A DNA stretch of 64,000 bases from an uncultured Candidatus Saccharibacteria bacterium (GCA_964406145.1 CAYOQP010000002.1:13537-77536); one strand, 5' to 3'. Positions 9,191-25,301 are shown, numbered from the stretch's first letter. Notes: generated by a model from the letters alone, not told the origin. Made by a program: numbers and translations.

Positions 9191-9214
9191 TGCCTTTACC
9201 GGCATCCCTATCAC

Positions 9215-9531: not shown

Positions 9532-9560
9532 TTGACAAAAACAGAAAAATGTAGTATAAT
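9532..9560 (+). promoter_or_regulatory. perfect consensus sigma70 promoter P2 (TTGACA-17-TATAAT)
   Basis: Seen directly; lies 214 bp downstream of P1. Confidence 0.6.
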
Positions 9561-10899: not shown

Positions 10900-11017
10900 G
10901 GTTTGTGCGGCAGAGATCCTGTCTCTATGCTCGCCCCCGTGGCGTGCTGGAGACAGTCCTCTGCGAATCATTCCAGACATTCACCCAGCGACCTTGAACT
11001 TGAAGGAGGTTTCAACC

Positions 11018-11569
11018 ATGTCCGACACTCCCGCCGGCACCACCGGCAAAGCGCAGATCAAGCTTCCGCAGCTTCCGCCGGCAGTTGAGCCGGAAGATCT
11101 GCGGACTCGCCTGATGGAAGTGGCAGTTGCCACCCCGTCCGGCGAACGCGCCAAGATGATCGATGCTCTCTCGCGGAAAATGGCCGGTGGCAGCAATGCC
11201 GTCGAGCATCTCCTCGAAGTGATCGAAGACACCAGCGCGGCGCGCGAAGAAATCGTCGGCGCCATCGCCATCCTCATCTCCCCCGCGATCTGGGACAAGT
11301 ACACCAATCCCGATCTGCGTGGAGCTGTCGTCTCCTGGCTCGTGTGGCTGGCCACACAGGAGTTCGACTCCGACATCAGCTTGACCGCGCTGGCGGCAGC
11401 CCAAGCCCTCCTCGCCGAGGGACCGCTCCGCAAGGAGCACGCCAACACAGTCAAAACCTGCATTCTGCAGGCGCGACAGATGGATCCGCCGCTCACCTGG
11501 TCCATCGCCGTCTCGTTCGTCTTCGACTTCGTCGCCAGCAATGGTGGCGAGTCGAAAGACAAGCAATAG
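11018..11569 (+). CDS. hypothetical protein (GC-rich island)
   Basis: GGAGG RBS 7 nt before ATG 11018; high GC; no recognisable motif. Confidence 0.4.
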   Translation: MSDTPAGTTGKAQIKLPQLPPAVEPEDLRTRLMEVAVATPSGERAKMIDALSRKMAGGSNAVEHLLEVIEDTSAAREEIVGAIAILISPAIWDKYTNPDLRGAVVSWLVWLATQEFDSDISLTALAAAQALLAEGPLRKEHANTVKTCILQARQMDPPLTWSIAVSFVFDFVASNGGESKDKQ

Positions 11570-11584: not shown

Positions 11585-11648
11585 CCCCCACTCTTCCTGA
11601 AAGGGTGGGGGATTCGCATTTTATAAGGACTTTATTAGTCCTTTTTTT
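11585..11648 (+). terminator. double hairpin terminator at the right edge of the GC-rich island
   Basis: CCCCCACTCTT...AAGGGTGGGGG followed by AAGGACT-TTATT-AGTCCTT and a T7 run. Confidence 0.65.
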
Positions 11649-11740: not shown

Positions 11741-12100
11741 ATGTCAAGTCAACAAGCACAGGACTCCATTGTTGGTGATATCATTAAAAAAGATCTCATC
11801 GATCTTTTGGGATTAAACGATCTACCTGAGGAGAAGAAAGAAGAGTACCGCAAGACGGCGGCTGAGACAGTCTACAACCGAGCCTTTATCCGTGCTACTG
11901 ATATGCTCGAAGAGATGGGACTACTAGAAGAATACCAGAAGGAAGATCGAGACGAAGAGGGGACTAAAGCCTTTTTTGCGAGTCACGGAATCGATCTGGA
12001 ACAATTGCTTAAAGATGAAGCCTTGATATATAAGACGCAGATGAAGATGTCTGCAGACCTACTGGATGCTGGGATAGACGTAAAAGCCAAAGCGGCTTAA
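11741..12100 (+). CDS. hypothetical small acidic protein
   Basis: GGAGGG RBS; 119 aa. Confidence 0.45.
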   Translation: MSSQQAQDSIVGDIIKKDLIDLLGLNDLPEEKKEEYRKTAAETVYNRAFIRATDMLEEMGLLEEYQKEDRDEEGTKAFFASHGIDLEQLLKDEALIYKTQMKMSADLLDAGIDVKAKAA

Positions 12101-12110
12101 GGGAGGGAAT

Positions 12111-15100
12111 ATGACAGTAGACGGACGAGGTCCATCACCTGAAGAAATGGGAGTAGATGTCAGCCGTGCTGGCGGTGCGGTTGTAGTTGATGCGAGCGAA
12201 GCATCTCCAGATGGTGGTGCTTTTAGTTTGGACGATCTTCCACCAGCAGATGTAGATCCTTTAGCAGGTGAAGATGCAGCTCCTGTTGTAGTTGATGAAA
12301 CACCAGAAGAAGGACTTGTTTCTGCTACTCCAGCCACCCAGGCCGAACCAGTCGCTGGAGCAACACTAGAAAGACCAAAGACTCAACAAGAGCTTGCAAA
12401 AGAAAAGAGAATGACCAAACTTGATGAATCAATCAAAGCGACGGCAAAGTTGGCCGAATCAGGCAAATTGCTGAAAATGGCCAAGTATCGCAAGAAAGAT
12501 GCCGGAGAGCATGTCGTCGATGGTCTTAAAAGCTTTGCCAAAAAAGCTGTCATTGGTGGTGCAATTGGTGGATTTTTTGCTGGTCCTCTTGGAATTCTAG
12601 CTGGTATTGGTGGTGCGGCCGGATCAGAGCTTGGAGTCAGTGTCGGCAAGATCTTTCGCGGTGCAGTCGACAAAATTGGCGAGATGAGTGGCCGCGAAAA
12701 TAAACAAGAAGATCTGAGAAGAGAACTCGAAATTCTCGAATCTGACAGACTTTGTAAATTGGCAGATTTAGCAGTCGCCACAGCAGAAGCAATAAGATTA
12801 CCAGAGGGCGAGAAAATTACTTTCGAAGGCGCTGAGTATACGGCGGATGAAATGCGTCTAAAATATTTTGAATTTGTTACTAAAATGGCTGATCCCAATT
12901 CTGCGGAAAATCAGGCCATGGCAGAGAAAGAGAAGAAATACAAAAAAGGAGAAGTCGGTTGGAAATTATTCAATGGCTTACTTGGTGTTGCTGGCGGCAT
13001 ATTAGCTGGCGGCGCGATAACCGAAGCCATCAGAGCAACACTTACACAACAAATTGCTTTGCATGGTGTTAATATGAAGACTGGCGGTATCGGCGAGCTT
13101 GCTGATACTTATGGCTCAGAGAGTCTAAAGCATATGCAAACCCTAGGCCATAATGTGCATGTGCATAATGGCGGAATAGTTTTTGATTATCAGGGTGGTG
13201 CTGGTGGAGCAGAGCTTCAGGAAATTGGTCAAGCAATGCAGAATGCTCCTGCTTGGCTACAGAATGGTCACTTTTTTAATTCAGAATTAATCCAGCAAGG
13301 CATGCACGAGGCCGAAGGTTTAAGAGCTCAGTTTACTGAGATTGTTGGTCGTGAAGTACAAACAAAAATTTATGGTATTATCGCTGGCATTGGTGCGGCT
13401 TCTGCAGTTGTTGATATGTTTAGGAATGATCGTGGCAAGAAGACTGGTAAAGTCGAGGCTATTTCTAAAGAGACATTATTATCCAGAGATCTTGCGCCGA
13501 CTCCTGCTAGTCCAGCGGCACCTGCGGGGCCAGCGGCACCAGGTGGTGAGGGCGGAGGAGAAGAGCTAGCTCCGATAGAGCTTAGGATCGGTGGTATATA
13601 CGGAGCTCGTACCGATTTGCTTGGTTCTGATGGCGCCGTCATTTTGCCTCGAGACGGCGAAGTCACTTTGGCTAGTGCTGATGCTGCTGCGCGAACAGTT
13701 GTCCTACAGCAGACTAATGCTGATGGGGAGACTGCTACATGGGAAGATTATCCTATCGATCAGTTCCAAACAAATTTTATTTATCTTAGAGGTGGCGCTG
13801 CGCCAGAAACATCAACAGAAGAAGATGAGAATGAAGAGCTTGAGCCTGGTGAAATATCAGCAGATGAGCAAGCCGAGCTTGATGATATGCCGGAGAACGA
13901 GCGGGAGTTCATGGAGGCTGCCTATGCTTTACGTGGTGCAAGGGGCCCAATCGCCAGAGCTGAGAGAGAAAATCCCGACGATGAAGTTACATATGTTGGC
14001 GAGGGCACATTCCAAACTTATCAAGATTTGATGGATGCTGGAGATACGGCTGGATTCGACATTTGGTGGAGCGGCCCAGAATATGGCCATATTCCAAATG
14101 TTGGGACAGCAGAATTTGTAGTTACGGGAGTTGTCTGTAGCCGCAATCCAGATGGCCAACTTCGTGTTGATTTCGAAATTGATATTATTGCAGAACCCGA
14201 TCCAGATATATTGGCTCGAGGCTATGAAAGAAAAGGCTTCTTTAATGAAGCTGGTAATAATGAGTTTGATGCCGAAGCTTTCAGGACCGCAGTAAATGAG
14301 GCATCCTTAACGGAGCCAGTAATAATTAGATTGTCTGATGGTCAAGTACTTCATGCCAATCCTAGTTCAGCTGGAAATGAGGGTTTTTCAATATTCAATC
14401 CAGATAATCCAGATAATCCACCTCAGCCGATAAAGTACAACGAGCTTACAGAAGAAGGTTTGAGTGGTGCTCTGGGTGTGGACTGGTACGTCAAAAAAAG
14501 TACGGAGCCGGTAGTAGAAGAAGCACCACTGGCTGATGGCGAGGACGAAGTTGTGCCTCTGCCAGGAGGCTCAGATGCAGACGCTGAAGTGCCGCTTATT
14601 ACTGAGAAAGAGGCTGGTCTTAATGAAATAAGGACACTGGTTAATCGTCTTGCGGCAGTCGGCCCAGTCAAGGCGGTTAGACACGAAGGCGCAAACGATG
14701 ATATTATTGATCCTGACCCAGGAAAAGTTGATAAATGGTTTCAATTTCATGATGAGATCATTGCGAAGAAGAGCGACTCTGTCTCTATCAGTTTTGTCAC
14801 GGAGGGTATAGAGACTTTTACTGATGGTTCTGAGTATATGCTAACTATAGATGGGACTCCAGAAATTTCAGAAGATGCAGATGGCAAAGTTAAGATTATC
14901 ATCAAGGGTCGTGCTGAAGCTGTCTCTGGTCCTGCGGAAGAGTCTGAATTGCCGGCGCCCGAGGGCGATCCGGCCGCGGCGGAGAAAGAAAGAATCCGTC
15001 AAGAGATCAATGATCTAGCAGTAGAATTGGTGGCTTTTGGGTCGGTAAAGATGAGAAGAACGGACACTGGTGCCGAGTCGCTTGACCCTGGATTTTTCCC

Positions 15101-16814
15101 TGCTTATTTAAAACTCAAAAATACCGCTGAAAGTAACGGCTATGAATTCCGACATACAATTGTTGGAATGAACGCTCTCGCTTCTGGGACAGAATTTTCA
15201 GCTATCTACGATTCTCAAGAGATAATTCAAGATCCAGACGGTAAAATGATTATTAAGGTGGTTGCTCATGTTGAGACGGCTCCAGCGCCAGCAAATCCTG
15301 AAGCTGATTTAGAGTCAGATATTTCTGGTAGTGAAGTTTTGGTTAATGCGGCTACTGGGGAAATCAATCCACCTTCAGCTGTTTCGGCCAAATATCCAGA
15401 TAAACGTTTTTCAATCAAGCCAGACCTGTCCTTCAATAAACCAGCCGTTGATTTTTATGCAAAGATTGATTTAGCGGCTGATTCATTTGGCATTACCCCT
15501 GATCCAGAATATCCTGATCATTTATTTGTTCCAATTACGCTAAAGCCGGCTGATGGTTTCACTGAAGCTGAGCGTGGAGGTTTTTTCCTTGAAGTTGATA
15601 TTTTCGGAAGAAATTGGGATAAATTCAACACTCGTTTCGCTAATCGCGAGACTAGCGGCGAAGTCTTCACTTTGCGTGACAGGAATTTAATTGAGTATAC
15701 GATTACCGGTCAGGATGGCGATGATTATATTATGACTTCAGCTGCAGGTGAGACGAGAATGACAGCCGACAAAATTAAGGCAAACATTGTTGACTGGTAT
15801 GCAAAGGCAGGTGAGGTGTCGACTGGAGCCCCAGAGACTGAGAATACTACGGATGCCCCACCTTCCCCAGAAGCCGGCACGGAGACGACAATTGATGCTG
15901 ATGTTGAAGCTTTAAGCGCACAATTCGTCGGAAAAGAATTTGAGTTTACGAGTCCGACTGATTTTCACAACGTTGAGGCTGATGGTTTTACGCTTGATGA
16001 TCAGATGAAGAAACTTGTAGAGAAATATCCAGATTTTTCAGCCAAGCCGATGTGGTTTTTGCCTGAGTCTGCTTCTGGCAAAGCCAGGATTTCCTCTATA
16101 AAAAAATACGAAAAAGAAGGTTATAAGTATTTTATGGTCAAGTTTGATATTGAAGAACTTAACCCCGATGCAATTTTATCTGCCGCTGGTTATGAACAAA
16201 GAGGAACATTACAAAGTGGGATAAAAGGAAATAATTTAGAGAAATATAAAAAGGCAATAGATTCGGGCGAACAGGTAGTTGTAAGAGATTATAAAGGTGG
16301 TATTTATCTAATGACAGGAAAAAATGCGACCACAGGTGATAGATACTGGGAGGGCAGACCATTCGATCCTATTACTGGTACAATTGGAGAGCCAGTTCCT
16401 AGTTTCGCTATGCCAGTTGACTGGTATGTAAAAAAGGCTGATGGCGGTGCTCCAGTCGGAGAGCCTGCGACTGATACTGGCACAACAGAATCTCCTGTCG
16501 ACGAACCACCAGCTGAAAGATTGCCCTTTGAGCGACTAGAGAATGGCCGTATTCGACTAAATTATCCAGATGGCAAGACCATAGAGCTCGGCGGACCGGA
16601 ATCAGTCACATTGCCGATAACTGAAAAGGGTGAGAAAAAAGATGCTACTGGAGTAATAATGAGTGTCAAGTTTTCGCCGCCAGTGACTGAAGAAACCGAC
16701 CTAGATATCAAGCTTCTAAAGGAAGGATCTACTAGGCTTTCAAAAGTTACTTATAAAGTTAGCGAATTAAAACAATATTTATTAGAGAAGAATCCTGGGC
16801 TACTTAGAGGATAA
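12111..16814 (+). CDS. giant acidic protein (1567 aa) with a Gly-zipper segment and internal DWYVKK repeats
   Basis: GGGAGGG RBS; uninterrupted 4.7 kb ORF; GGAIGGFFAGPLGILAGIGGAAG segment; repeated (V)DWY(V/A)K(K/A) motif three times. Confidence 0.6.
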   Translation: MTVDGRGPSPEEMGVDVSRAGGAVVVDASEASPDGGAFSLDDLPPADVDPLAGEDAAPVVVDETPEEGLVSATPATQAEPVAGATLERPKTQQELAKEKRMTKLDESIKATAKLAESGKLLKMAKYRKKDAGEHVVDGLKSFAKKAVIGGAIGGFFAGPLGILAGIGGAAGSELGVSVGKIFRGAVDKIGEMSGRENKQEDLRRELEILESDRLCKLADLAVATAEAIRLPEGEKITFEGAEYTADEMRLKYFEFVTKMADPNSAENQAMAEKEKKYKKGEVGWKLFNGLLGVAGGILAGGAITEAIRATLTQQIALHGVNMKTGGIGELADTYGSESLKHMQTLGHNVHVHNGGIVFDYQGGAGGAELQEIGQAMQNAPAWLQNGHFFNSELIQQGMHEAEGLRAQFTEIVGREVQTKIYGIIAGIGAASAVVDMFRNDRGKKTGKVEAISKETLLSRDLAPTPASPAAPAGPAAPGGEGGGEELAPIELRIGGIYGARTDLLGSDGAVILPRDGEVTLASADAAARTVVLQQTNADGETATWEDYPIDQFQTNFIYLRGGAAPETSTEEDENEELEPGEISADEQAELDDMPENEREFMEAAYALRGARGPIARAERENPDDEVTYVGEGTFQTYQDLMDAGDTAGFDIWWSGPEYGHIPNVGTAEFVVTGVVCSRNPDGQLRVDFEIDIIAEPDPDILARGYERKGFFNEAGNNEFDAEAFRTAVNEASLTEPVIIRLSDGQVLHANPSSAGNEGFSIFNPDNPDNPPQPIKYNELTEEGLSGALGVDWYVKKSTEPVVEEAPLADGEDEVVPLPGGSDADAEVPLITEKEAGLNEIRTLVNRLAAVGPVKAVRHEGANDDIIDPDPGKVDKWFQFHDEIIAKKSDSVSISFVTEGIETFTDGSEYMLTIDGTPEISEDADGKVKIIIKGRAEAVSGPAEESELPAPEGDPAAAEKERIRQEINDLAVELVAFGSVKMRRTDTGAESLDPGFFPAYLKLKNTAESNGYEFRHTIVGMNALASGTEFSAIYDSQEIIQDPDGKMIIKVVAHVETAPAPANPEADLESDISGSEVLVNAATGEINPPSAVSAKYPDKRFSIKPDLSFNKPAVDFYAKIDLAADSFGITPDPEYPDHLFVPITLKPADGFTEAERGGFFLEVDIFGRNWDKFNTRFANRETSGEVFTLRDRNLIEYTITGQDGDDYIMTSAAGETRMTADKIKANIVDWYAKAGEVSTGAPETENTTDAPPSPEAGTETTIDADVEALSAQFVGKEFEFTSPTDFHNVEADGFTLDDQMKKLVEKYPDFSAKPMWFLPESASGKARISSIKKYEKEGYKYFMVKFDIEELNPDAILSAAGYEQRGTLQSGIKGNNLEKYKKAIDSGEQVVVRDYKGGIYLMTGKNATTGDRYWEGRPFDPITGTIGEPVPSFAMPVDWYVKKADGGAPVGEPATDTGTTESPVDEPPAERLPFERLENGRIRLNYPDGKTIELGGPESVTLPITEKGEKKDATGVIMSVKFSPPVTEETDLDIKLLKEGSTRLSKVTYKVSELKQYLLEKNPGLLRG

Positions 16815-16821
16815 AAGAATT

Positions 16822-17778
16822 ATGGACACATCTACATCTGCAAAAAATGAAGAATTAGGTTCGGCCGGATCAGTGGACATCTATAGTCAGGAAGAGGAGC
16901 TGGATCCATCTTCACTTGATGATGAAACCAGAGTTGAAGTGCTGGATGATTTTTGTAATATTCTTTTGCCTTTAATAGAAAATCACAATTCACTAACTGA
17001 GGCAAAGAAAGATGATGAGGCTGAGCCAATCAGCACGAGAATCACAAAGTTTTTTGTCGACATGGTTCCTTATGGACCAGAATCAGAGCAAGTCTTGAGA
17101 ATGGAAAAAAGCGTCAAAGATGCAACATTGAGAGGCGATCTGCAATCCATCAGAGAGCAGGCTATTGCCGACAGGGAAGATTTGGCTAGGCACGCTGAAT
17201 ATATGGATAAGGTAAGAGGCATGGAGTTTATGACGAAGAAGAAGCTCGATGCGATTCCGGAGCCAGAGCCAATGAAGCCAGTGCCTTCTCTTCAAGAAGT
17301 CATCGATGCCAAGAAAGCCGCTGGTTTATCAACATTTACTTCGCCAAATGACGAGCTAATAATTGATGCAGTTGATCCCGAGACAGTGCCAACGGGCACA
17401 GCAGAAACGGTCGCGGCGACAAGAGACAATGATAATGCCGTGGAAACAGAGCATGCTGCGCCAGTAGAAACGACCAATGTGGTAACTCCAACGGAAGATG
17501 AAGCGCTTAAGACGGCAGAAGCTGTTAAGGTCGCCCCAGAAGAAGCAGAAGTCGAGACTCCAGTCCAGGCGGCTGTTGTCGAAAAGCCAGCAGGAGATAA
17601 TACTATTGATAAAGTCGAGACGCCGGTAGAGGTGACTACTGCCCCAGTTGCTGAGACGACTGATCCCGATAAATTGCCGTGGTGGAAGAGAGTCTTAGGT
17701 CTTGGGTCTAATCCCGACACTTCTCAGGTTGCTGGTGTTGGCCCCAACGGTCCGCTAGTTGAAGAAGAGAAAAAATAG
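16822..17778 (+). CDS. hypothetical acidic protein
   Basis: 318-aa ORF tightly linked to the giant gene. Confidence 0.5.
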   Translation: MDTSTSAKNEELGSAGSVDIYSQEEELDPSSLDDETRVEVLDDFCNILLPLIENHNSLTEAKKDDEAEPISTRITKFFVDMVPYGPESEQVLRMEKSVKDATLRGDLQSIREQAIADREDLARHAEYMDKVRGMEFMTKKKLDAIPEPEPMKPVPSLQEVIDAKKAAGLSTFTSPNDELIIDAVDPETVPTGTAETVAATRDNDNAVETEHAAPVETTNVVTPTEDEALKTAEAVKVAPEEAEVETPVQAAVVEKPAGDNTIDKVETPVEVTTAPVAETTDPDKLPWWKRVLGLGSNPDTSQVAGVGPNGPLVEEEKK

Positions 17779-17780
17779 AT

Positions 17781-20333
17781 ATGTACAGTGGAGGGAATTA
17801 TTATAATAGCGATCCAGGATTATTCGCGGATGGAATTCCGTGGTATTTTTGGTTGATCGGCGTAATTGTTATTATTGTTTTGGTTGCGATTTTCTATCAA
17901 TGGATCAGGCTCTGGATTCTAGCTCGTTTTCAAATGAGGCTTTCTAAGGACTGGGTCATGTACAAGATTTTGGTGCCGAAAGAACGACATGCCGAGGAAG
18001 ATGATCAGCGCAAGAATTTCCAGGAAATGCTAGCAGTTATTGAGCCATTCTATGCTAATCTAAATGCACTCTTTGATAATTCGATGATCAAGAAAATGAC
18101 TGGTCAGGTCAATGTCTCACTCGAAATTATCGCCAAAGACAATGTCATTTCTTTTTATGTTGGTTGTCCGAGAAAAATATCAGAGATTGTTTTGAAAAAT
18201 CTTCATTCTCAGTACGCTCATGCCGAGATTACTGAGGATAATAATTTTTCAATTTTTCCCAAGAAACCTCTTCAGATTGATATTCTGAATCTAAAGCTAA
18301 TCAAGAGATATTTGTTCCCGATTAAGACATACAAGAATCTCGAGGAAGATCCTCTCAATGCTTTGTCAAATTCGCTTTCTAAGCTTACACTTGATCAGCT
18401 GGCTGGAGTACAGATAATGCTGAGACCGACCTCTGGAATGTGGAGATTGCCGATCGAGCGCGCAGCCTTCAATATTCAGCATGGAAAATCGAGAATTTCT
18501 TATTCCTCATCGGCTACAGTCCGAGCCTCTGAAGCCTTTTTCAATTTCATTGGGCAAGCAGCTAATAATGCGACAGGCAAGGGCGAGGAACAACACACCG
18601 AATTTTATGATCCAAAAAATCCCATGAAAGTAACACCGATGCAAGAAGCACAGGTCAAGATGCTTGGCGAGAAGGCGGCTAAACTTGGATTTGAATGTCA
18701 AATTAGAGTTGTGGCGGTTGCTGAGACAAAGGATCAGGCCAAGCAATTGTCTCGACATGTTGCTGGCGCCTTCAATCAGTTCAATTCTCCTGATGCCAAT
18801 GGTTTTGTGACTAAGGAAGTTAAAAAAATGTCAGAGGAATTAGCCAACTATATCTTTAGGGTTTTCGGTCGGGGGCCGAGACTAATTCTTAATACTGAAG
18901 AGCTGGCTTCACTGTTTCATTTCCCAAATCGTTTTGTTGACACACCTAACATTGTTTGGCTGCTTGCCAAGAAGGAGGCGCCGCCAGCAAACTTGCCAAC
19001 CGAAGGCACGATTCTTGGCAAAGCCCTTTACCGTGGTCAGGAGCAGATGATCAAGATCAAACAGGGCGACAGACTTAGACACTTATACCAGATCGGTAAG
19101 ACCGGCGTGGGTAAGACTGTCCTTTTCCAGAACATGATTCTGCAGGATATTCTTGAGGGTAATGGCGTCTGTTATCTGGACCCGAATGGTGACGCGGCCG
19201 AGTGGATATTGAATCATATACCCAAGGAGCGTGCTGACGATGTCATCTACTTCAACCCAGCTGATCGAGAAAGGCCGATGGGTCTCAATATGTTGGAGTG
19301 GAAGACGTCTGATCAGAGAGACTTTTTGGTCCAGGAAGCTATTCAAATTTTTTACAAGCTTTTCGATCCCAATCAGACCGGTATTGTTGGTCCACAGTTT
19401 GAGCACTGGATGCGCAATGCCTCACTGACTTTAATGTCTCACCCTGATGGTGGCACCATCATCGATATCCCGAGACTCTTTACTGATCCAGATTTCGAAA
19501 AGAGTCGAGTCAAATATGTCAAAGATCCAGTTGTCAAATCATTCTGGGAGAAGCAGATGGCCAAGACGGCGGATTTCCATAAATCTGAAATGTTAAACTA
19601 CTTTACCTCAAAGTTTGGTCGTTTCATGACCAACGATATGATGCGCAATATTATTGGTCAGACCAAGTCATCTTTTGATTTCCGAGACATTATGGATAAT
19701 AAGAAGATTTTGATCTGTAATCTCTCGAAAGGTTTGATAGGGGAGATCAACGCATTTCTGCTGGGTATGATAATAGTTTCCAAGATCGCGATGGGAGCCT
19801 TCTCTCGCCAAGATATTCCAGAGAGTGAGCGTATCCCATTCTTTCTCTATGTTGATGAGTTTCAGAACTTTGTGACTGAGGTTTTTGCCACCATCTTGTC
19901 TGAGTCAAGGAAATACAAGCTGTCTCTAAATATTACTAATCAGTATATCGAACAGCTTGATGAGAAGATTAGAGCGGCTGTAATAGGTAATGCCGGCACA
20001 TTGGTGGCCTTTCGAATGGGTGCGGCTGACGCAGAATTTTTCGTCAAGGAATTTGAGCCGCTAAAGCCGGAGGACTTAACGACAATTGATAAGTATAATT
20101 TCTATATCAAAATGCTGATTGATGGGGCACCAACCAAGCCGTTTAACGGTCAAAGTATCTGGCCTGATGATCCAGAAGGAAATCCGAAGCTTGGAGCGGC
20201 GATTAAGGAGCTTTCCAGGATGAAATATGGCAAACCCAAAGAGATGATTGAGACGGAAATCCTAGAACGATCCAAAGTTGCTTCTATTGATTTACCAGGC
20301 CTACAGCCAACTTCAAACCAGCCCACTCTTTAA
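17781..20333 (+). CDS. membrane-anchored FtsK/HerA-superfamily P-loop ATPase (VirD4/TraG/VirB4-like)
   Basis: N-terminal TM; Walker A GKTGVGKT followed by DPNGD; Walker B FFLYVDEFQNF. Confidence 0.7.
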   Translation: MYSGGNYYNSDPGLFADGIPWYFWLIGVIVIIVLVAIFYQWIRLWILARFQMRLSKDWVMYKILVPKERHAEEDDQRKNFQEMLAVIEPFYANLNALFDNSMIKKMTGQVNVSLEIIAKDNVISFYVGCPRKISEIVLKNLHSQYAHAEITEDNNFSIFPKKPLQIDILNLKLIKRYLFPIKTYKNLEEDPLNALSNSLSKLTLDQLAGVQIMLRPTSGMWRLPIERAAFNIQHGKSRISYSSSATVRASEAFFNFIGQAANNATGKGEEQHTEFYDPKNPMKVTPMQEAQVKMLGEKAAKLGFECQIRVVAVAETKDQAKQLSRHVAGAFNQFNSPDANGFVTKEVKKMSEELANYIFRVFGRGPRLILNTEELASLFHFPNRFVDTPNIVWLLAKKEAPPANLPTEGTILGKALYRGQEQMIKIKQGDRLRHLYQIGKTGVGKTVLFQNMILQDILEGNGVCYLDPNGDAAEWILNHIPKERADDVIYFNPADRERPMGLNMLEWKTSDQRDFLVQEAIQIFYKLFDPNQTGIVGPQFEHWMRNASLTLMSHPDGGTIIDIPRLFTDPDFEKSRVKYVKDPVVKSFWEKQMAKTADFHKSEMLNYFTSKFGRFMTNDMMRNIIGQTKSSFDFRDIMDNKKILICNLSKGLIGEINAFLLGMIIVSKIAMGAFSRQDIPESERIPFFLYVDEFQNFVTEVFATILSESRKYKLSLNITNQYIEQLDEKIRAAVIGNAGTLVAFRMGAADAEFFVKEFEPLKPEDLTTIDKYNFYIKMLIDGAPTKPFNGQSIWPDDPEGNPKLGAAIKELSRMKYGKPKEMIETEILERSKVASIDLPGLQPTSNQPTL

Positions 20334-20372
20334 TTAATAAGTCCTAGATTAATATTATTGCGCGACAAAATG

Positions 20373-20401
20373 TTGACGTATTGCTATTTATGTGGTAAGA
20401 T
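20373..20401 (+). promoter_or_regulatory. sigma70-like promoter (TTGACG-17-TAAGAT)
   Basis: Seen directly; internal promoter within the cluster. Confidence 0.4.
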
Positions 20402-20437
20402 AATGGCGTTGTTTAAGAATTATTAAACAAAAATAAA

Positions 20438-20944
20438 ATGCCAACTGAAAAAGAGCTCGAAAGAGTCAAACAATTGCTTGATGCGGCGGAAGCCAGCATC
20501 AGACAGGCGAAGAACGTTTTGTTCACAGCTGAGCTGTCTGAGATGACCAAGGAGTTGTCCAACGGTGATAGCAAGGTGATCGAAGGCGTTTTCAATGGCG
20601 AGAGCATGGTCGGCCCCGATAAAAAGATTTATCCGGTGCCCGCAAACTATGCTTCTAAGTCAAAATTAGTAAGCGGGGATGTCTTAAAGCTTACAATTCT
20701 TGATGATGGCACTTTTCTTTATAAGCAGATCGGGCCGGTCAAACGTAAAAAGGTTATCGGCGAACTTATCGAGGTTGGCGATGGAAAATATATCGTCGAC
20801 ACCAAGAGCGCCGAATATCAAGTTTTGCCTGCGTCAGTAACTTATTTTAAAGCCAAATCAGGTGACAAATTAACAATTCTTTTGCCAGAAGCCGGAGTCT
20901 CCGAGTGGGCGGCAGTAGAAAATTTATTAGAATCAACAATTTAA
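20438..20944 (+). CDS. hypothetical protein
   Basis: 168-aa ORF. Confidence 0.45.
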   Translation: MPTEKELERVKQLLDAAEASIRQAKNVLFTAELSEMTKELSNGDSKVIEGVFNGESMVGPDKKIYPVPANYASKSKLVSGDVLKLTILDDGTFLYKQIGPVKRKKVIGELIEVGDGKYIVDTKSAEYQVLPASVTYFKAKSGDKLTILLPEAGVSEWAAVENLLESTI

Positions 20945-20952
20945 GAGGTAAA

Positions 20953-21987
20953 ATGGTAGTCAAAAACTTTAGCCCCTACAAATTAGTTAGTGAAGCAATT
21001 CATGAATTGAAACCAAATGAGGTTACCGTCATTTCTGGTCGTTTTGGCATTGGTTCTGATCATCTTACTCTTTCTGCTATTGGCAAAAAGCTTAAACTCT
21101 CTAGAGAGCGAATACGTCAAATTGAACGCGAAGCCCTAAAAAAGGTTGCACGTCTGATTGTGAATGAGAAAAATTCTTCTATCAATGAGATTGTTCGTTC
21201 TTTCGAAAAAAATGGTGGCATCACTAGCCATGAAAAAATTGCCGAAAAGTTTCTCGAAGAGAATTATTGGAATGACAAAAACGAGTTCAATTCACTTCAT
21301 CTTATTTTTGTTATTATGCCATCAATTTTGAAAATTGAAAAAACCCAAGAGCTTGAGTCTGGCTGGATGCTAACGTCCTTGTCGAAAGATGACGCAATTA
21401 AAATTATTAACGATTGGGTTGGCCATCTTAAGAAAAATAATAAACCAGAAACTCTTGATGTTTTGATTGATGCTCATCCAGAACACAAGAAATACAAAGT
21501 TACTTTCCTGTCAGAGCTTCCAGAAATTAGTAAGAAACTAGTCAAAACTGATACCGGCCACATTGGTCTATCTTCTTGGCCAGAGGTCAATCCTAAAAAC
21601 GTTCGTGACAAAATATTCTACATCCTAAATCATCATGGTAAGCCAATGCACTTTGAAGACATCGCCAAGGCGATCGTCGACCATAAGTTTGATGGCAAAA
21701 AAATTGTCAAAGCCACAGTTCATAACGAATTGATTGCTGATTCTCGTTTCGTTTTGATTGGCCGTGGAATTTATGCTCTCAAAGAGTGGGGTTATCAACA
21801 GGGTACAGTCTCGGACATCATCAAAGAGATTCTCTCAAAGCATGCCGCTGGTCTTACAGTTGACGAAATCACCAAGAAAGTTTTAGAACAGAGAATGGTT
21901 AAGAAAAATACCATCCTTATCAATCTCCAGACAAAGCCATATTTTAAGAAAATTTCTAAAGAGAAATACGTCCTAAGTAGCTTCTAA
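20953..21987 (+). CDS. sigma-70 region-4-like HTH protein (putative regulator)
   Basis: LTLSAIGKKLKLSRERIRQIEREALKKVAR resembles RpoD region 4.2; AAGAGG RBS before ATG 20953. Confidence 0.55.
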   Translation: MVVKNFSPYKLVSEAIHELKPNEVTVISGRFGIGSDHLTLSAIGKKLKLSRERIRQIEREALKKVARLIVNEKNSSINEIVRSFEKNGGITSHEKIAEKFLEENYWNDKNEFNSLHLIFVIMPSILKIEKTQELESGWMLTSLSKDDAIKIINDWVGHLKKNNKPETLDVLIDAHPEHKKYKVTFLSELPEISKKLVKTDTGHIGLSSWPEVNPKNVRDKIFYILNHHGKPMHFEDIAKAIVDHKFDGKKIVKATVHNELIADSRFVLIGRGIYALKEWGYQQGTVSDIIKEILSKHAAGLTVDEITKKVLEQRMVKKNTILINLQTKPYFKKISKEKYVLSSF

Positions 21988-22059
21988 GGCCCTAGTAAAT
22001 CTTACTCCATAGCAGTATAATGATCTTAGTCGTATTACGACTTAGTTTGCAGTAGGAGT

Positions 22060-25000
22060 ATGAATTACATTTTATACATTATCTATGCTATCCTAATCAT
22101 TGGTCCGATTTACCTTATTTGGGCGATTATGAATATTAATAGAAAAATGAAAAAAGTTGACTGGCTCAATGCACAAGAATACACCATTCTTCGCATTGAT
22201 GTCCCGAAAAATAATGACAAGTCTCCGCTTGCCGCTGAGCAAATGTTTGCCGCTATTCATGGAATTTACTCGGAGAGTGCTAGTTATCAAAATCATCTCT
22301 CTTTCGAAATAGTTTCCAAAGACAAGTTTATCCAATTCTATATCTATCTTCCGGTCCATTTGAAAGATTTTGTCGAAGGGCAAATTTATGCTCAATATCC
22401 GACAGTTGAGATTCAGGAAGTAGGGGATTACACTCAAGAAATCGACCCTAAGTCACAGAACTATGCTACCTGCGAGCTCGGTCTTAATAAGCCTGATGTT
22501 TATCCGATAAAGCAGTTTACTGATTTTGAAGTTGACCCGATTTCCGGCATCACTTCTGTTATGACGAAGCTCAATGCTGGCGAGGAAATTTGGTTTCAGG
22601 TCATGATCAGGCCGATAGGCGATGAGTGGCAGGAAAAGGGTCATGAAATGGTTTCGCACATACGTAACGGCACGTCTCTCAGGGGTAAGGGGCTAGCCGG
22701 TCAGTTCAACAAGACATTAAAACTTTGGTTTAAAGCTTTCTTTATTCAGCTCGTTAAACCAGGAGAGGCTTTTGAAACTAAGCCATCTGAAGTTAAACTT
22801 CATGCTTCCGTTGAGGATGCTCTCAAAAACATTGAACAAAAAATCACCAAGCTGGGTTTTGAGACCAAGATGCGAATCTTGGCTTTGGGCGGAGATAGTG
22901 TTTCGGCCAGAATGAAATGCCAGAATGTTGCTGCTGCCTTCAAGCAATACAACACTACCCACCTAAACGGTTTCAAGGTTGGCGAAATTTTGGTTAACGA
23001 TCATTCGGCTTGGAAGGATTTTGCAGAGCGTTCTTTTGAAGATGATGGTAAGATTTTTAATATTTCCGAACTTGCCTCAATTTATCACTTGCCTCATAGC
23101 TCGGTTTCGACGCCAAATATTGTTTGGTCTGGATCCAAGAAAGGCGAGCCACCTGCTAATTTGCCTCTTCGTGAAAATACTCCAGAGGACGAACTAACTG
23201 TAATCGGTGAGACAAATTTCAGAAACAACTTCAAGGTTTTCGGCATCAAGAAAGATGACAGGCGCCGACATATCTACATTGTTGGTAAGTCTGGTGTAGG
23301 TAAATCAGTTTTGATTGAAAATATGGCTGTCAATGATGTTTGTGCGGGTAGGGGAGTGATTGTGGTCGATCCACATGGCGAACTAGCCGATAAGGTTCTT
23401 TCCTGTATTCCAGAAAACAGAATTAAAGATGTAGTGGTTTTCGATCCATCTGATCGTGAATTTCCGGTTGCCTTTAACCTTCTAGAGCATGTTGATGATG
23501 ACTTTAAGAGTATTGTCGCTTCAGGTTTCGTCGGTATTTTCAAAAAGATTTTTGGCGATTCTTGGGGCCCTCGTCTCGAGCATATTCTTCGAAACACGGT
23601 TTTGGCGCTTCTTGATTTTCCTGATTCGACCATGTTGGACATTCCGAGAATGTTAACTAATAATCGTTTTCGCGAAAAAGTTATCGAAAGAGTAAAGGAC
23701 CCAATCATTAAAGAATTCTGGCTCAATGAATTTGCTTCATTCGATAGCAAGTTCAGAACTGAAGCCGTTTCGCCAATTTTGAACAAGGTTGGACAATTTT
23801 TGTCTTCGGCCACAATCAGACATATTGTTGGTCAGCCAAAATCAACGATTAATATTCGTGAAATTATGGATCAAAAGAAGATAATGATTGTCAATCTTTC
23901 TCGCGGTAAGATCGGTGAGGATAATTCGGCCCTCTTGGGTGCAATGATGATCACCAAAGTTCAGCTTGCGGCTATGAGCCGTGCTGATGTTACTGTCGAT
24001 AATCGACCGGATAGTTATCTTTACGTCGATGAGTTTCAGAACTTTGCCACAGAATCATTCGCTGTTATTCTGGCAGAAGCCAGAAAATATAACTTGAATC
24101 TCACAATGGCTCATCAGTATATTGCTCAGCTTAAGGAGGAAGTGAGAGAGGCTGTCTTTGGTAATGCCGGCACAATTATTTCCTTTAGAGTTGGTGGAGC
24201 CGATGCTGATACTTTGGTCAAAGAGTTTGAACCAGTCTTTGAAACTAATGATATGGTCAATCTTGATAAATATCATATTTACATCAAGCTTCTTGTTGAC
24301 GGTGTTTCCTCCCCGGCATTTTCTGCTCGTACATTGCCTCCAGTCCAAAAACTAACAGGTAATCTTGAAGCTGTGATCAATAATTCGCGTAGCACTTATT
24401 CTCGAACACGTGCTGAAGTTGAGAATATGATCATGCACAGAAGCCAAGAGGAGGAAGAAGAGCTTAAGGCGGAAGCAGAGGCTTTCAAGCAAGGTGGCCT
24501 TGAAGCCCTTTTGTCCAAAAAACCAGTTTCTGTAACCTCTTCCCCAAGTTCTGAAGAGAAAAAGGGCGATCTTGATGTTGAGATTATCCAAGAGCCAGTT
24601 CCGATTAAATGGATCAATCCAGAGAAACCAGAAGTTAAGGATGTGCCAGCCGAGACCAAGACAATCGCTGAGCCATCAGAACCAAGGAACGAAAATGTTG
24701 AGACTAAAAAAGCAGAAGGTCCAAGAGTTGTGAAATATGATAGCATTCTGGACGGTAAAATTTATAAGGAAAGAACGGCTAGGGGAGGGGTGAAATGGTA
24801 TCTCGGGGAAGAGATTGACGAGGAAAAATTAGCCAAGAATAAGGTCTTATTAGATGACGGAGCTCGTAAAATTATTGAATTGTCAAAAGAAGTCGCGCCC
24901 AAAGGGGGAAAGAAAAATAACCAAAACAAGGGTGATGGTCATAAAAAAAATGATCATGAGGCAGGGGAGTCTCATTCTGGAAAAAGTGATAAGGTTGCAG

Positions 25001-25206
25001 AGAAGACTGAAGATAAAGACCCAGAGATAACTAAATTCCCAGAAAATCAAACTGAAAACGACAAGGCTAAAGAAGACAAAGAAGGGGCTGAAATCAAGAC
25101 TGAGCCAGAGGCAAAAATAGTCGCCGATAAAAATAACGATGAGCAGCCTATTAAATCCGATCCTCAGCATCTGGAAGAGGGCCAGTCGGTCAAAATTGGT
25201 GACTAA
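22060..25206 (+). CDS. membrane-anchored FtsK/HerA-superfamily P-loop ATPase paralog with Lys/Glu-rich C-terminal tail
   Basis: N-terminal TM; GKSGVGKS followed by DPHGE; SYLYVDEFQNF; alignable with the 17781 to 20333 protein across the whole ATPase region. Confidence 0.7.
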   Translation: MNYILYIIYAILIIGPIYLIWAIMNINRKMKKVDWLNAQEYTILRIDVPKNNDKSPLAAEQMFAAIHGIYSESASYQNHLSFEIVSKDKFIQFYIYLPVHLKDFVEGQIYAQYPTVEIQEVGDYTQEIDPKSQNYATCELGLNKPDVYPIKQFTDFEVDPISGITSVMTKLNAGEEIWFQVMIRPIGDEWQEKGHEMVSHIRNGTSLRGKGLAGQFNKTLKLWFKAFFIQLVKPGEAFETKPSEVKLHASVEDALKNIEQKITKLGFETKMRILALGGDSVSARMKCQNVAAAFKQYNTTHLNGFKVGEILVNDHSAWKDFAERSFEDDGKIFNISELASIYHLPHSSVSTPNIVWSGSKKGEPPANLPLRENTPEDELTVIGETNFRNNFKVFGIKKDDRRRHIYIVGKSGVGKSVLIENMAVNDVCAGRGVIVVDPHGELADKVLSCIPENRIKDVVVFDPSDREFPVAFNLLEHVDDDFKSIVASGFVGIFKKIFGDSWGPRLEHILRNTVLALLDFPDSTMLDIPRMLTNNRFREKVIERVKDPIIKEFWLNEFASFDSKFRTEAVSPILNKVGQFLSSATIRHIVGQPKSTINIREIMDQKKIMIVNLSRGKIGEDNSALLGAMMITKVQLAAMSRADVTVDNRPDSYLYVDEFQNFATESFAVILAEARKYNLNLTMAHQYIAQLKEEVREAVFGNAGTIISFRVGGADADTLVKEFEPVFETNDMVNLDKYHIYIKLLVDGVSSPAFSARTLPPVQKLTGNLEAVINNSRSTYSRTRAEVENMIMHRSQEEEEELKAEAEAFKQGGLEALLSKKPVSVTSSPSSEEKKGDLDVEIIQEPVPIKWINPEKPEVKDVPAETKTIAEPSEPRNENVETKKAEGPRVVKYDSILDGKIYKERTARGGVKWYLGEEIDEEKLAKNKVLLDDGARKIIELSKEVAPKGGKKNNQNKGDGHKKNDHEAGESHSGKSDKVAEKTEDKDPEITKFPENQTENDKAKEDKEGAEIKTEPEAKIVADKNNDEQPIKSDPQHLEEGQSVKIGD

Positions 25207-25271: not shown

Positions 25272-25301
25272 GGGTGATGCTTGGTTCACCCTTTTTATTT
25301 T
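25272..25301 (+). terminator. intrinsic terminator
   Basis: GGGTGA-TGCTTGGT-TCACCC followed by TTTTTATTTT. Confidence 0.65.

What the first reader, a model, noticed from the sequence alone, without database searches (positions are those of the whole stretch)
11741..25206. Candidate uncharacterised secretion or transfer-like module: giant acidic protein plus two paralogous membrane-anchored FtsK/HerA-superfamily ATPases plus sigma region-4 regulator
Seven co-oriented, tightly spaced genes. The 1567-aa protein has no recognisable enzymatic motif but carries a Gly-zipper segment and internal repeats. It is followed by a 318-aa acidic protein and then an ATPase with N-terminal TM, Walker A GKTGVGKT-DPNGD and Walker B YVDEFQNF. 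Next come a 168-aa protein and a sigma-70 region-4 HTH protein, then a second ATPase paralog (GKSGVGKS-DPHGE, YVDEFQNF) with a long KE-rich tail. VirD4/TraG/VirB4-type ATPases power substrate transfer in type IV systems. No relaxase, pilin, VirB6/8/9/10 or integrase is visible, so this is not a canonical T4SS or ICE. A minimal monoderm (CPR-type) export or DNA/protein transfer apparatus with the giant protein as cargo or surface component is a plausible hypothesis.
Basis: partly seen in the sequence, partly recalled or inferred. Interest (0 to 1): 0.85.

Follow-up and report, generated by a model that had tools for sequence, protein, structure and literature searches.

The report
Orphan conjugation-type ATPase pair in CPR
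Two conserved membrane ATPases related to the "coupling proteins" of bacterial conjugation sit in the chromosome of a tiny Berkelbacteria (CPR) cell, next to a fast-evolving giant acidic protein. The ATPase family has already been counted in these bacteria but its role is unknown, and its link to the giant protein holds only in a few lineages.

Summary

The rest of the proposed module is lineage-specific:
- In related genomes TGT is followed directly by the two ATPases.
- The giant protein has only 18 distant relatives, which share its N-terminal domain only.
- The sigma-r4/HARE-HTH gene lies between the ATPases only in Berkelbacteria.
- A DUF5663 protein, a big acidic protein and an acidic protein do travel with ATPase 1 in Berkelbacteria- and Doudnabacteria-type loci.

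Verdict: a conserved orphan T4CP-type ATPase pair next to a hypervariable envelope-protein cassette. A cargo relationship is possible but not shown.

The parts
11625..11643 (+). Terminator-like hairpin followed by a T-run. It marks the end of the upstream high-GC block and the start of the unit.
   Evidence: This is a consensus match only.
11741..12100 (+). Small acidic helical protein (119 aa, pI 4.5) of the DUF5663 (PF18908) family. It marks the variable cassette.
   Evidence: A family HMM finds it next to big acidic proteins in L001-L004, L008, L009 and L014. Its relatives carry PF18908. In 6 of 7 contexts with enough DNA there is a DUF8128 ATPase within 5 kb.
12111..16814 (+). Giant acidic protein (1567 aa, pI 4.5). 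Its parts are an acidic N-terminus, a semi-conserved domain (aa ~104-449) with three Gly/Ala-rich hydrophobic segments (aa 146-178, 286-307, 419-437), a Pro-rich linker, and a hypervariable repeat-bearing remainder.
   Evidence: No match in Pfam, NCBIfam, PHROGs, PADLOC or PDB. The word-indexed search finds only the protein itself. A full phmmer search finds 18 proteins that share only the N-terminal 350-460 aa. Weak internal repeats. Hydropathy. Marginal match to the L001 giant (E 3e-4).
16822..17778 (+). Acidic 318-aa protein (pI 4.28) that ends 2 nt before ATPase 1. It occupies the same position as the 181-322-aa acidic proteins upstream of ATPase 1 in L001-L004.
   Evidence: No family hits. 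No detectable similarity to the proteins in the same position elsewhere. Not matched by the HMM of the small upstream partner found in Microgenomates-type loci.
17781..20333 (+). ATPase 1 (850 aa). It has an N-terminal transmembrane helix (nt 17835-17942), a DUF8128 domain with a VirB4-NTD-like fold (aa 54-400, nt 17940-18980), and a VirD4-type P-loop domain. The P-loop domain carries Walker A (nt 19095-19118), DPNGD (19179-19193), an all-helical insertion (aa ~510-640) and Walker B (19848-19871).
   Evidence: phrog_5156 matches at E 1.8e-86.
20438..20944 (+). 168-aa protein with no known family. It is a conserved downstream neighbour of ATPase 1.
   Evidence: About 50-59% identical homologues lie 0.1-2.7 kb downstream of the ATPase in L001-L003, L009-L013 and L017; in L004 the homologue lies about 1.3 kb upstream of the second ATPase. 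200-201-aa genes occupy the same position in L085 and L087. No Pfam or PDB match.
20953..21987 (+). Sigma-70 region 4 plus HARE-HTH protein (the ORF opens at a GTG at 20905). It is probably a DNA- or RNA-polymerase-binding regulator.
   Evidence: Sigma70_r4 50.4 bits and HARE-HTH 55.5 bits. It lies between the two ATPases only in the window, L001-L004, L083/L084 and the P0138 contig. Elsewhere it is only loosely linked (L061, L078).
22060..25206 (+). ATPase 2 (1048 aa), a paralogue of ATPase 1 (35% identity). It has a transmembrane segment (aa 4-22), DUF8128, a VirD4-type P-loop domain (Walker A nt 23284-23307, Walker B nt 24022-24045), and a K/E-rich low-complexity tail (aa 801-1048, nt 24460-25203).
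   Evidence: Above the Pfam cut-offs for T4SS-DNA_transf (35.6 bits), DUF87, TraG-D_C and TrwB_AAD_bind. conju_CD1115 matches at E 1.5e-14. DUF8128 is on record for this protein.
25272..25291 (+). Terminator-like hairpin followed by a T-run, directly after ATPase 2.
   Evidence: This is a consensus match only.
7242..11569 (+). Adjacent high-GC block (55-72% GC in a ~39% GC genome). It encodes a lipoprotein with a weak VWA-like match, a 4-TM protein, a PAPAP-rich signal-peptide protein and a 235-aa protein. It forms part of the variable insert between TGT and ATPase 1. It is not shown to belong to the system functionally.
   Evidence: Similar high-GC secreted-protein genes flank the locus in L001-L005, L008 and L017.

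Best explanation
The core of the finding is a chromosomal, vertically inherited pair of paralogous membrane-anchored ATPases of the conjugative coupling-protein (VirD4/T4CP) lineage.

Each has one N-terminal transmembrane helix. Next comes a ~350-aa domain (DUF8128) that folds like the N-terminal domain of VirB4. Last comes a RecA-type P-loop domain with intact Walker A and B motifs and an all-helical insertion.

By analogy with T4CPs and VirB4, I infer that they assemble as ring-shaped oligomers at the cytoplasmic membrane, possibly as a mixed A1/A2 assembly. I also infer that they use ATP to recruit and push a polymeric substrate (DNA or unfolded protein) into or across the envelope. They could do this by feeding the distally encoded CPR type IV secretion system or by acting on their own.

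The genes upstream of ATPase 1 are a lineage-specific, fast-evolving envelope-protein cassette inserted next to this conserved pair. They are the DUF5663 protein, the giant acidic protein and the 318-aa acidic protein. They are plausible clients or adaptors, but that is not shown.

p168 is a semi-conserved partner candidate. The sigma-r4/HARE-HTH gene is a Berkelbacteria-specific insertion, at most a local regulator.

Shown: domain identities, fold, distribution and synteny. Inferred: oligomeric state, substrate, and any link to the giant protein.
For: Sequence:
- ATPase 2 passes the Pfam cut-offs for T4SS-DNA_transf, TrwB_AAD_bind, TraG-D_C and DUF87.
- Both ATPases hit TraD and CD1115-type VirD4 models and PDB TrwB and DotL.
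- Close homologues carry PF26449 (DUF8128) and PF02534.

Structure:
- The AF2 models have pLDDT of about 80.
- The top 13 Foldseek hits for the N-domain are all TrwK.
- The full-length model matches TrwK, HerA, DotL and TrwB.
- The model has a helical insertion at aa 510-640, between Walker A and Walker B.

Context elsewhere:
- A B. subtilis plasmid carries the operon homologue / Replic_Relax / TcpC / AAA_10 VirB4-like.
- A Natrinema plasmid has a split version next to a pilin gene and another T4SS-type ATPase.

Core status:
- There are at least 600 matches in GTDB species genomes across CPR phyla, at 40-84% identity.
- The TGT ... SecDF synteny is conserved.
- The two paralogues abut or overlap in L005-L007.
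- ATPase 1 is 100% identical between strains in which the giant protein is 92.7% identical.

Literature: 5,713 VirD4-type homologues were found in 2,918 Patescibacteria genomes, and only 148 lie near virB4 (PMC12102498).

Cassette linkage.
Against: - No substrate, partner channel or relaxase is visible in the window or in 79 of 80 loci.
- The literature reports that the T4CP homologue of S. epibionticum is not essential while the T4SS is. That argues against an obligatory coupling role.
- ATPase 1 alone falls just under the Pfam cut-off in the local scan (TraG-D_C 21.6 against 22 bits).
- The AF2 alignments were shallow (46 sequences, most of them at least 60% identical).
- Large orphan genes are not enriched next to the ATPase across CPR as a whole.
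- The giant-protein family is tiny.
- One DUF5663-plus-big-protein cluster has no ATPase in view (L088).
- Hetero-oligomer formation is inferred only from gene adjacency.
Confidence: 0.6

Rival explanations
1. All seven genes form one self-contained minimal export or transfer apparatus of a monoderm CPR cell. The two ATPases power export of the giant acidic protein as cargo or surface component. The DUF5663 and 318-aa acidic proteins act as chaperones or adaptors, and the sigma-r4 protein is the dedicated regulator.
For: - The genes are tightly spaced, co-oriented and bracketed by terminator-like hairpins.
- A DUF5663 gene, a big acidic protein and an acidic protein stay near ATPase 1 in Berkelbacteria- and Doudnabacteria-type loci, even when their order changes.
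- Small acidic helical proteins next to large substrates resemble secretion chaperones or adaptors (general knowledge, not tested here).
- The long ATPase 2 tail resembles the adaptor-binding C-terminal extensions of some T4CPs (general knowledge).
Against: - In L005-L007 the ATPases follow TGT directly, with no cassette.
- In most of the 80 loci no DUF5663 gene or giant-family member is near the ATPase.
- There is no general enrichment of large orphan genes next to the ATPase.
- The sigma-r4/HARE-HTH gene is inserted only in Berkelbacteria.
- The giant protein has its own hydrophobic segments and could be inserted by Sec/YidC.
- L088 pairs the cassette with a sortase and shows no ATPase.
Confidence: 0.2
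2. The ATPases are DNA-handling translocases for the cell's own needs. They would act in FtsK-like chromosome segregation and Xer dimer resolution, or in uptake of environmental or host DNA. They would not be secretion components.
For: - A XerC/D-like tyrosine recombinase lies within ~3 kb in 20 of 80 loci, and an FtsB/DivIC-like gene in 18.
- In Bacillus phages the homologues sit in the early, recombination and replication region, next to a nuclease-inhibitor gene and an ERF annealing-protein gene.
- T4CPs and FtsK are related DNA pumps (general knowledge).
Against: - There is no FtsK_SpoIIIE or FtsK-gamma match for either protein.
- The best matches are TraD, VirD4 and TrwB.
- At least one CPR genome (TM7x) has a separately annotated ftsK.
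- The recombinase linkage is confined to Microgenomates-type loci and is absent from the window.
- According to the review read, competence in Saccharibacteria depends on ComEC and type IV pili.
Confidence: 0.12
3. The region is a remnant or cargo of a mobile element (ICE, plasmid or prophage), or an anti-phage defence island built around HerA-like ATPases.
For: - Homologues occur on plasmids and phages.
- There are weak PADLOC hits to mad8 (E 1e-13 to 1e-15) and HerA, and a MzaA-like region 4.
- A high-GC, apparently foreign block lies next door.
Against: - There is no integrase, relaxase, repeat boundary or tRNA.
- The ATPase pair sits in the same TGT...SecDF housekeeping synteny in several genomes and is present in nearly all CPR.
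- The ATPases are 100% identical between strains that differ elsewhere.
- The PADLOC matches cover only the generic P-loop region or region 4.
Confidence: 0.05

Closest known systems
Type IV coupling proteins (VirD4 / TrwB / TraD / DotL)
   Same: - N-terminal membrane anchor.
- P-loop domain with a GxxGxGK[ST] Walker A, a DPxGD/E strand and a hydrophobic-DE Walker B.
- All-helical insertion between Walker A and Walker B.
- Pfam T4SS-DNA_transf, TrwB_AAD_bind and TraG-D_C hits.
- A variable C-terminal extension in ATPase 2.
   Different: - One transmembrane helix instead of the usual two.
- An extra ~350-aa VirB4-NTD-like domain (DUF8128) between the anchor and the ATPase.
- Chromosomal and near-universal in CPR.
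- Two paralogues.
- No relaxase or T4SS genes nearby.
VirB4 / TrwK (T4SS signature ATPase)
   Different: - No hit to the VirB4 sequence families (AAA_10, CagE_TrbE_VirB) at E <= 0.01.
- A Bacillus AAA_10 VirB4-like protein does not hit them by BLASTP.
- They carry their own transmembrane helix.
- No VirB3, VirB6 or VirB8 neighbours.
- Patescibacteria have a separate bona fide VirB4 (PMC12102498).
'Orphan' VirD4-type T4CP homologues of Patescibacteria (Quinonero-Coronel et al. 2025, PMC12102498)
   Same: About two copies per genome, almost always far from virB4, present in ~96% of genomes, function unknown. The window's pair fits this description.
   Different: In the sections I read (the VirB4-distribution section and the passages matching VirD4, coupling protein and T4CP), the paper does not mention the DUF8128/VirB4-like N-domain, the tandem-paralogue arrangement, or the DUF5663/giant-protein cassette. 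That the window's proteins are the ones counted there is my inference and was not checked against their tables.
DUF87/DUF8128 ATPase of Bacillus plasmids (e.g. NZ_CP154917.1) and phrog_5156 of Bacillus phages
   Same: Full-length homology that includes the N-domain (22-24% identity over 80-86% of the query, E 1e-27 to 1e-40; phrog_5156 E 1.8e-86).
   Different: On the plasmid it lies immediately upstream of a Replic_Relax protein, TcpC and an AAA_10 VirB4-like gene, which is a conjugation operon. In phages it lies among early and recombination genes. The CPR copies have neither setting.
HerA / FtsK translocases
   Same: Same ASCE P-loop superfamily. There are structural matches to HerA hexamers and a DUF87 hit.
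   Different: No FtsK_SpoIIIE or gamma-domain match. No nuclease partner (NurA, Sir2 or DUF4297) nearby. The N-domain's structural matches are to VirB4, and no HerA N-terminal (HAS-barrel) domain is among them.

Membership tests
VirD4/TraG-type coupling protein (T4CP) | P-loop NTPase domain of the FtsK/HerA/VirD4 clade with intact Walker A and Walker B | tested here: met
   The motifs can be read directly. They are invariant in 46 homologues. There are structural matches to TrwB, DotL, VirB4 and HerA.
VirD4/TraG-type coupling protein (T4CP) | Sequence-profile membership (Pfam T4SS-DNA_transf, TrwB_AAD_bind or TraG-D_C above the gathering score) | tested here: met
   ATPase 2 scores 35.6, 25.0 and 25.9 bits against cut-offs of 20.1, 20.5 and 22. 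ATPase 1 itself reaches only TraG-D_C at 21.6 against 22 bits, but its close homologues carry PF02534 on record. All NCBIfam TraD and CD1115 hits are far below the equivalog cut-offs.
VirD4/TraG-type coupling protein (T4CP) | All-alpha domain inserted in the nucleotide-binding domain | tested here: inconclusive
   The AF2 model has an all-helical insertion at aa ~510-640, between the Walker A and Walker B strands. The TrwB_AAD_bind profile aligns over 396-705 of ATPase 2. I made no domain-level superposition with the TrwB all-alpha domain.
VirD4/TraG-type coupling protein (T4CP) | N-terminal membrane anchor | tested here: met
   Kyte-Doolittle peaks of 2.68 (aa 19-37, ATPase 1) and 2.33 (aa 4-22, ATPase 2). 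The model has a helix at aa 21-54. There is one helix, not the two typical of TrwB and VirD4.
VirD4/TraG-type coupling protein (T4CP) | Works with a relaxase or substrate and a VirB4-based channel (genomic association) | tested here: not met
   No relaxase or T4SS gene lies in the part of the window that was annotated (all genes from 4.9 to 27 kb plus the ten largest ORFs elsewhere). A VirB4-like gene lies within 10 kb in only 1 of 80 loci. The rest of the genome could not be searched.
VirB4 (T4SS signature ATPase) | VirB4-type N-terminal domain | tested here: met
VirB4 (T4SS signature ATPase) | Sequence-profile membership (AAA_10 or CagE_TrbE_VirB) and VirB3/VirB6/VirB8 neighbours | tested here: not met
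   No such Pfam hit at E <= 0.01. There is no BLASTP match to a Bacillus AAA_10 VirB4-like protein. No such neighbours are present.
FtsK/SpoIIIE chromosome translocase | FtsK_SpoIIIE motor domain and gamma (KOPS-binding) domain | tested here: not met
   No Pfam or NCBIfam FtsK hit for either protein. No FtsK chain is among the PDB sequence hits.
HerA-type defence or repair ATPase | HAS-barrel N-domain and a nuclease or effector partner (NurA, Sir2, DUF4297) | tested here: not met
   The N-domain's structural matches are to VirB4, and no HerA chain is among them. No partner gene is present. The PADLOC HerA hits cover only the P-loop region (E 3e-7 to 8e-3).
Pfam DUF8128 / DUF5663 (CPR families of unknown function) | Profile match | tested here: met
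   PF26449 is on record for both window ATPases. PF18908 is on record for 19 of the 21 hits of the g119-family profile. Neither model matched in the local Pfam copy.

The most novel reading that the evidence does not exclude
The paired DUF8128 ATPases are a T4SS-independent membrane translocation motor that is universal in CPR. It would be a VirB4/VirD4 hybrid kept from, or re-engineered out of, monoderm conjugation machinery. In some lineages it would export or assemble hypervariable giant envelope proteins with help from DUF5663 adaptors. More generally it would move host-derived or self polymers across the single membrane of these episymbionts.
Probability: 0.2. Interest if true: 0.85.

Novelty: new variant of a known kind. 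Interest (0 to 1): 0.5.

Why it matters
Patescibacteria make up a large share of bacterial diversity and live attached to host cells, but how they move macromolecules across their envelope is largely unknown. According to the literature, their T4SS is essential, yet no coupling protein was recognised in its gene cluster, while VirD4-like genes lie elsewhere in nearly every genome with no known job.

This work shows three things about those genes:
- They carry a VirB4-type N-domain fused to a VirD4-type motor.
- They come as an ancient paralogous pair in a housekeeping neighbourhood.
- In some lineages they travel with a hypervariable giant-protein cassette.

That gives concrete, testable candidates for substrates and partners. 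It also offers a possible view of how VirB4 and VirD4 diverged. If the pair proves to be a stand-alone translocase, it would be a new minimal secretion or uptake route.

Tried and rejected
- Giant protein, 318-aa, 168-aa and 119-aa proteins against Pfam, NCBIfam, PHROGs and PADLOC: no hits. The giant and 168-aa proteins also have no significant PDB sequence match.
- Word-indexed homologue search of the giant protein: only itself. This turned out to be a sensitivity limit, since the full phmmer search found 18 relatives.
- tRNA and Rfam scans of the window: nothing.
- Test for enrichment of large orphan genes next to the ATPase across 80 loci: flat at about 0.2 coverage in all distance bins. 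I therefore dropped the idea of a CPR-wide link between giant proteins and the ATPase.
- HMM of the small "WRWLAEW" protein found just upstream of the ATPase in Microgenomates-type loci: it does not detect the window's 318-aa protein. I do not claim homology.
- HMM of the giant protein's N-domain against all fetched loci: only a marginal hit to the L001 giant.
- Chimeric assembly as the cause of the high-GC block: judged unlikely, because similar blocks recur at the same locus in independent MAGs. I did not test it with read data.
- FtsK, defence-system and mobile-element readings: considered and ranked low (see the rival explanations).
- Literature searches for DUF8128 and DUF5663: no papers.

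Full report
**What is there**

The window is about 39% GC. It carries L10, L7/L12 and tRNA-guanine transglycosylase (TGT, 5973-7109) upstream. DUF1290, SecF and SecD lie on the opposite strand downstream. Between them lie a 55-72% GC block (7.0-12.0 kb) and then the seven + strand genes of the finding.

All seven ORFs, their spacing and the quoted motifs are confirmed. Terminator-like hairpins sit at 11625-11643 and 25272-25291, just outside the unit. The closest relatives of ATPase 1 are annotated as Candidatus Berkelbacteria or Patescibacteria.

**The ATPases**

By sequence, ATPase 2 passes the Pfam gathering scores for T4SS-DNA_transf, DUF87, TraG-D_C and TrwB_AAD_bind. Both proteins hit NCBIfam TraD and CD1115-type VirD4 models, well below the equivalog cut-offs. 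Both also hit PDB TrwB and DotL. There is no FtsK, AAA_10 or CagE_TrbE_VirB hit. The source database records PF26449 (DUF8128) for both proteins. The paralogues are 35% identical over about 800 residues.

An AlphaFold2 model of ATPase 1 has mean pLDDT 79.5. It shows:
- a long N-terminal helix;
- an alpha/beta N-domain;
- a RecA-like domain with an all-helical insertion (aa ~510-640) between the Walker A and Walker B strands.

Foldseek against the PDB ranks full-length TrwK/VirB4 first (E 5e-12), then HerA, DotL and TrwB.

The proteins therefore combine a VirD4-type motor, by sequence, with a VirB4-type N-domain, by predicted fold. Both models rest on a shallow alignment of 46 sequences.

**Distribution**

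The word-indexed search gave 2,855 significant hits. The best 80 loci cover Berkelbacteria, Doudnabacteria, Woese-, Roizman-, Levy-, Gottesman-, Davies- and Curtissbacteria, Staskawiczbacteria, Gracilibacteria, Peribacteria and others.

Outside CPR, full-length relatives that include the N-domain occur in several places:
- Bacillus phages (phage G gp156, CP-51-like and SPP1-size phages; phrog_5156, E 1.8e-86);
- 392 plasmid records, from Streptomyces, Bacillus, Staphylococcus, Clostridium, haloarchaea and Sulfolobus.

On a 27.5-kb B. subtilis plasmid the homologue is the first gene of an operon. It is followed by a Replic_Relax protein, TcpC (VirB8-like), an AAA_10 VirB4-like ATPase and further transfer genes. 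That is the usual coupling-protein position. On a Natrinema plasmid the N-domain and the ATPase are separate genes, next to a pilin gene and a second T4SS-type ATPase. In a Bacillus phage the gene lies among early, recombination and replication genes.

**Comparison with the literature**

Quinonero-Coronel et al. (PMC12102498) report the following:
- VirB4 in 2,417 of 3,035 Patescibacteria genomes.
- 5,713 VirD4-type T4CP homologues in 2,918 genomes, of which only 148 lie near virB4.
- The T4CP homologue of S. epibionticum is not essential, so they raise the possibility of exaptation.

Wang et al. (PMC10633639) note that the essential Saccharibacteria T4SS lacks a recognisable coupling protein in its cluster.

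The window's two ATPases fit the description of about two per genome, away from virB4. In my 80 loci only L039 has a VirB4-like gene within 10 kb. That these are the same proteins is an inference. No paper in the searchable library mentions DUF8128 or DUF5663.

**Is the seven-gene set a module?**

I ran tblastn of every window protein against the 80 loci, and I clustered all ORFs. Only the ATPase is constant.

- The order ATPase 1 / p168 / sigma-r4-HARE / ATPase 2 is kept only in L001-L004. It is also kept on the contigs found later (L083, L084 and the P0138 contig).
- In L005-L007 TGT is followed directly by the two ATPases. These abut or overlap by a few bases, and in L006 they are followed by SecF and SecD. 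The ancestral arrangement is therefore probably a tandem pair. Everything between TGT and ATPase 1 in the window is an insert.
- p168 homologues (about 50% identical) lie 0.1-2.7 kb downstream of the ATPase in nine other loci; in L004 the homologue lies upstream of the second ATPase.
- In Microgenomates-type loci the neighbours are housekeeping genes (ribonucleotide reductase, NrdR, TrpRS). There are also a XerC/D-like recombinase (20 loci), an FtsB-like gene (18 loci) and a small protein immediately upstream. This small protein has a conserved C-terminal ...WRWLAEW... helix and is found in at least 25 loci by HMM.
- The window's 318-aa protein is not detected by that HMM.

**The giant protein and its companions**

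The giant protein has no domain-library hits. The word-indexed search finds only the protein itself. A full phmmer scan of 1.84 billion representatives finds 18 other proteins of 780-1937 aa. They share only the N-terminal ~350-460 residues, at 27-44% identity.

That domain contains three Gly/Ala-rich, moderately hydrophobic segments and is followed by a Pro-rich linker. The remainder is acidic and carries weak repeats.

Big acidic proteins with the same N-terminal layout sit next to ATPase 1 in L001-L004, L008 and L009. Sequence links among them are thin:
- L001 and L003 are 29% identical over 355 aa.
- The window's domain HMM hits L001 at E 3e-4 and nothing else.

The 119-aa gene is the better marker. 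It belongs to DUF5663 and accompanies the big proteins in the window, L001-L004, L008, L009 and L014.

I then started from DUF5663 hits and looked at their contigs. Six of the seven contexts with enough DNA have a DUF8128 ATPase within 5 kb. One context, L088, instead has a sortase and two ~950-aa proteins with no ATPase in view.

Between two near-identical strains (L083 and L084) the identities are:

| Gene | Amino-acid identity |
|---|---|
| ATPase 1, p168, sigma-r4/HARE, DUF5663 | 100% |
| Acidic protein | 94.6% |
| Giant protein | 92.7%, with indels |
| High-GC secreted protein | 73.7% |

Across all 80 loci, large orphan genes are not enriched near the ATPase.

I conclude that this is a fast-evolving, probably envelope-associated cassette. 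It is linked to ATPase 1 in a limited set of lineages. That is compatible with a client relationship and equally with a tolerated insertion hot spot.

**Mechanism**

What is shown:
- two intact P-loop ATPases with membrane anchors;
- VirD4-type motor sequence;
- VirB4-type N-domain fold;
- core chromosomal status;
- relatives in the coupling-protein slot of a conjugation operon.

What is inferred, from what is known about T4CP and VirB4 hexamers:
- They form ring oligomers at the membrane. A mixed ring is possible, given that the genes abut or overlap in L005-L007.
- They use ATP to recruit and move a polymer.
- They either serve the distal T4SS or act alone.

Three observations make a T4SS-independent activity credible. 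The phage homologues have no T4SS. The reported non-essentiality in S. epibionticum argues against an obligatory coupling role. And more genomes have T4CP homologues than have VirB4.

Rival readings, with the confidence I give each:
- An FtsK-like or uptake DNA translocase (0.12).
- A mobile-element remnant or defence island (0.05).

**Verdict**

The ATPase family is a known kind (T4CP) in an unusual variant that has been catalogued but not characterised.

The features not seen in the literature I could search are the VirB4-like N-domain, the tandem-pair ancestry and the lineage-specific DUF5663/giant-protein cassette. Interest is moderate (0.5). The function remains unproven.

Noticed in passing
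window 7001-12000: A ~5-kb block of 55-72% GC lies in a ~39% GC genome. It encodes a lipoprotein with a weak VWA-like match, a 4-TM Arg-rich protein, a PAPAP-rich signal-peptide protein and a 235-aa protein. Comparable high-GC segments encode ~300-360-aa signal-peptide, Thr/Pro/Ala-rich proteins at the same locus in L001-L003, L005, L008 and L017. L055 and L078 also have high-GC segments next to the ATPase, but their ORFs are of a different kind. Overall 13 of 80 loci have such a segment. Possible origins are foreign DNA, compositional low complexity or an assembly artefact; which one applies is unresolved.
   Followed up: partly
window 9318-9346 and 9532-9560: Two near-perfect sigma-70-type promoter matches (11/12 with an extended TG, and 12/12) lie in the lower-GC gap upstream of the PAPAP-rich gene.
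   Followed up: no
window ~13761 (inside the giant gene): A second public contig (38 kb, JGI) that carries the identical ATPase 1 begins inside the giant gene, with 1,017 residues remaining. This suggests an assembly break or strain variation at that point.
   Followed up: no
L024, L026, L027, L030-L033, L038, L040, L041, L044-L046, L050, L064, L072, L073, L076 and others; immediately upstream of the ATPase: A small protein (90-280 aa) has a conserved C-terminal motif ...LP(L/I)T..E..G...S(W/V)RWLAEW..R..K. It abuts or overlaps the start of the ATPase gene in at least 25 Microgenomates-type loci. It is a candidate membrane partner, possibly VirB3-like in role. This has not been examined structurally.
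   Followed up: partly
L018, L019, L025, L026, L035, L037, L043, L051, L056, L066, L067, L076, L080 and others: A XerC/D-like tyrosine recombinase (usually convergent, within 0-3 kb) and an FtsB/DivIC-like coiled-coil gene recur downstream of the ATPase in about 20 Microgenomates-type loci.
   Followed up: partly
L088 541-9949: A sortase gene is followed by three large proteins with no Pfam match (484, 942 and 978 aa) and a DUF5663 gene, with no DUF8128 ATPase in the 11.5-kb contig. This hints that the DUF5663-plus-big-protein cassette encodes cell-surface proteins.
   Followed up: no
L082 (Natrinema pellirubrum pNATPE02) 1309-13072: A haloarchaeal plasmid cluster carries a pilin gene, a 1102-aa T4SS-type ATPase, and a split version of the family: a 395-aa N-domain gene overlapping a 1003-aa TraM-recognition/T4CP-like ATPase gene.
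   Followed up: partly
L090 (Bacillus phage 031MP004) 6866-9022: A phage homologue, annotated as an ATPase-like protein, sits among early genes next to a host-nuclease-inhibitor gene and an ERF annealing-protein gene. Its function in phages is unknown.
   Followed up: no
L083 vs L084: Divergence between two near-identical strains is mosaic. L1, L10, L12, ATPase 1, p168 and sigma-r4/HARE are 99.5-100% identical, while RF1, Pth and TGT are 94-95%. L083 also has an extra GIY-YIG gene after TGT. This suggests recombination.
   Followed up: no
window 32404-35412, 38831-41271, 56579-60964: The rest of the window is ordinary housekeeping: a UvrD/PD-(D/E)XK AddA-like helicase-nuclease, FtsZ and FtsA, RelA/SpoT, a ClpB/ClpC-type AAA+ chaperone, HisRS, enolase and glutamate dehydrogenase. 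Among the ORFs I annotated there are no T4SS or type IV pilus genes; many smaller ORFs were not scanned.
   Followed up: yes
window 20905-20953: The sigma-r4/HARE ORF opens at a GTG that overlaps the end of p168. Homologues begin at the internal Met (MVVKNFSPYK, nt 20953), so the annotated 360-aa length is probably 16 residues too long.
   Followed up: partly
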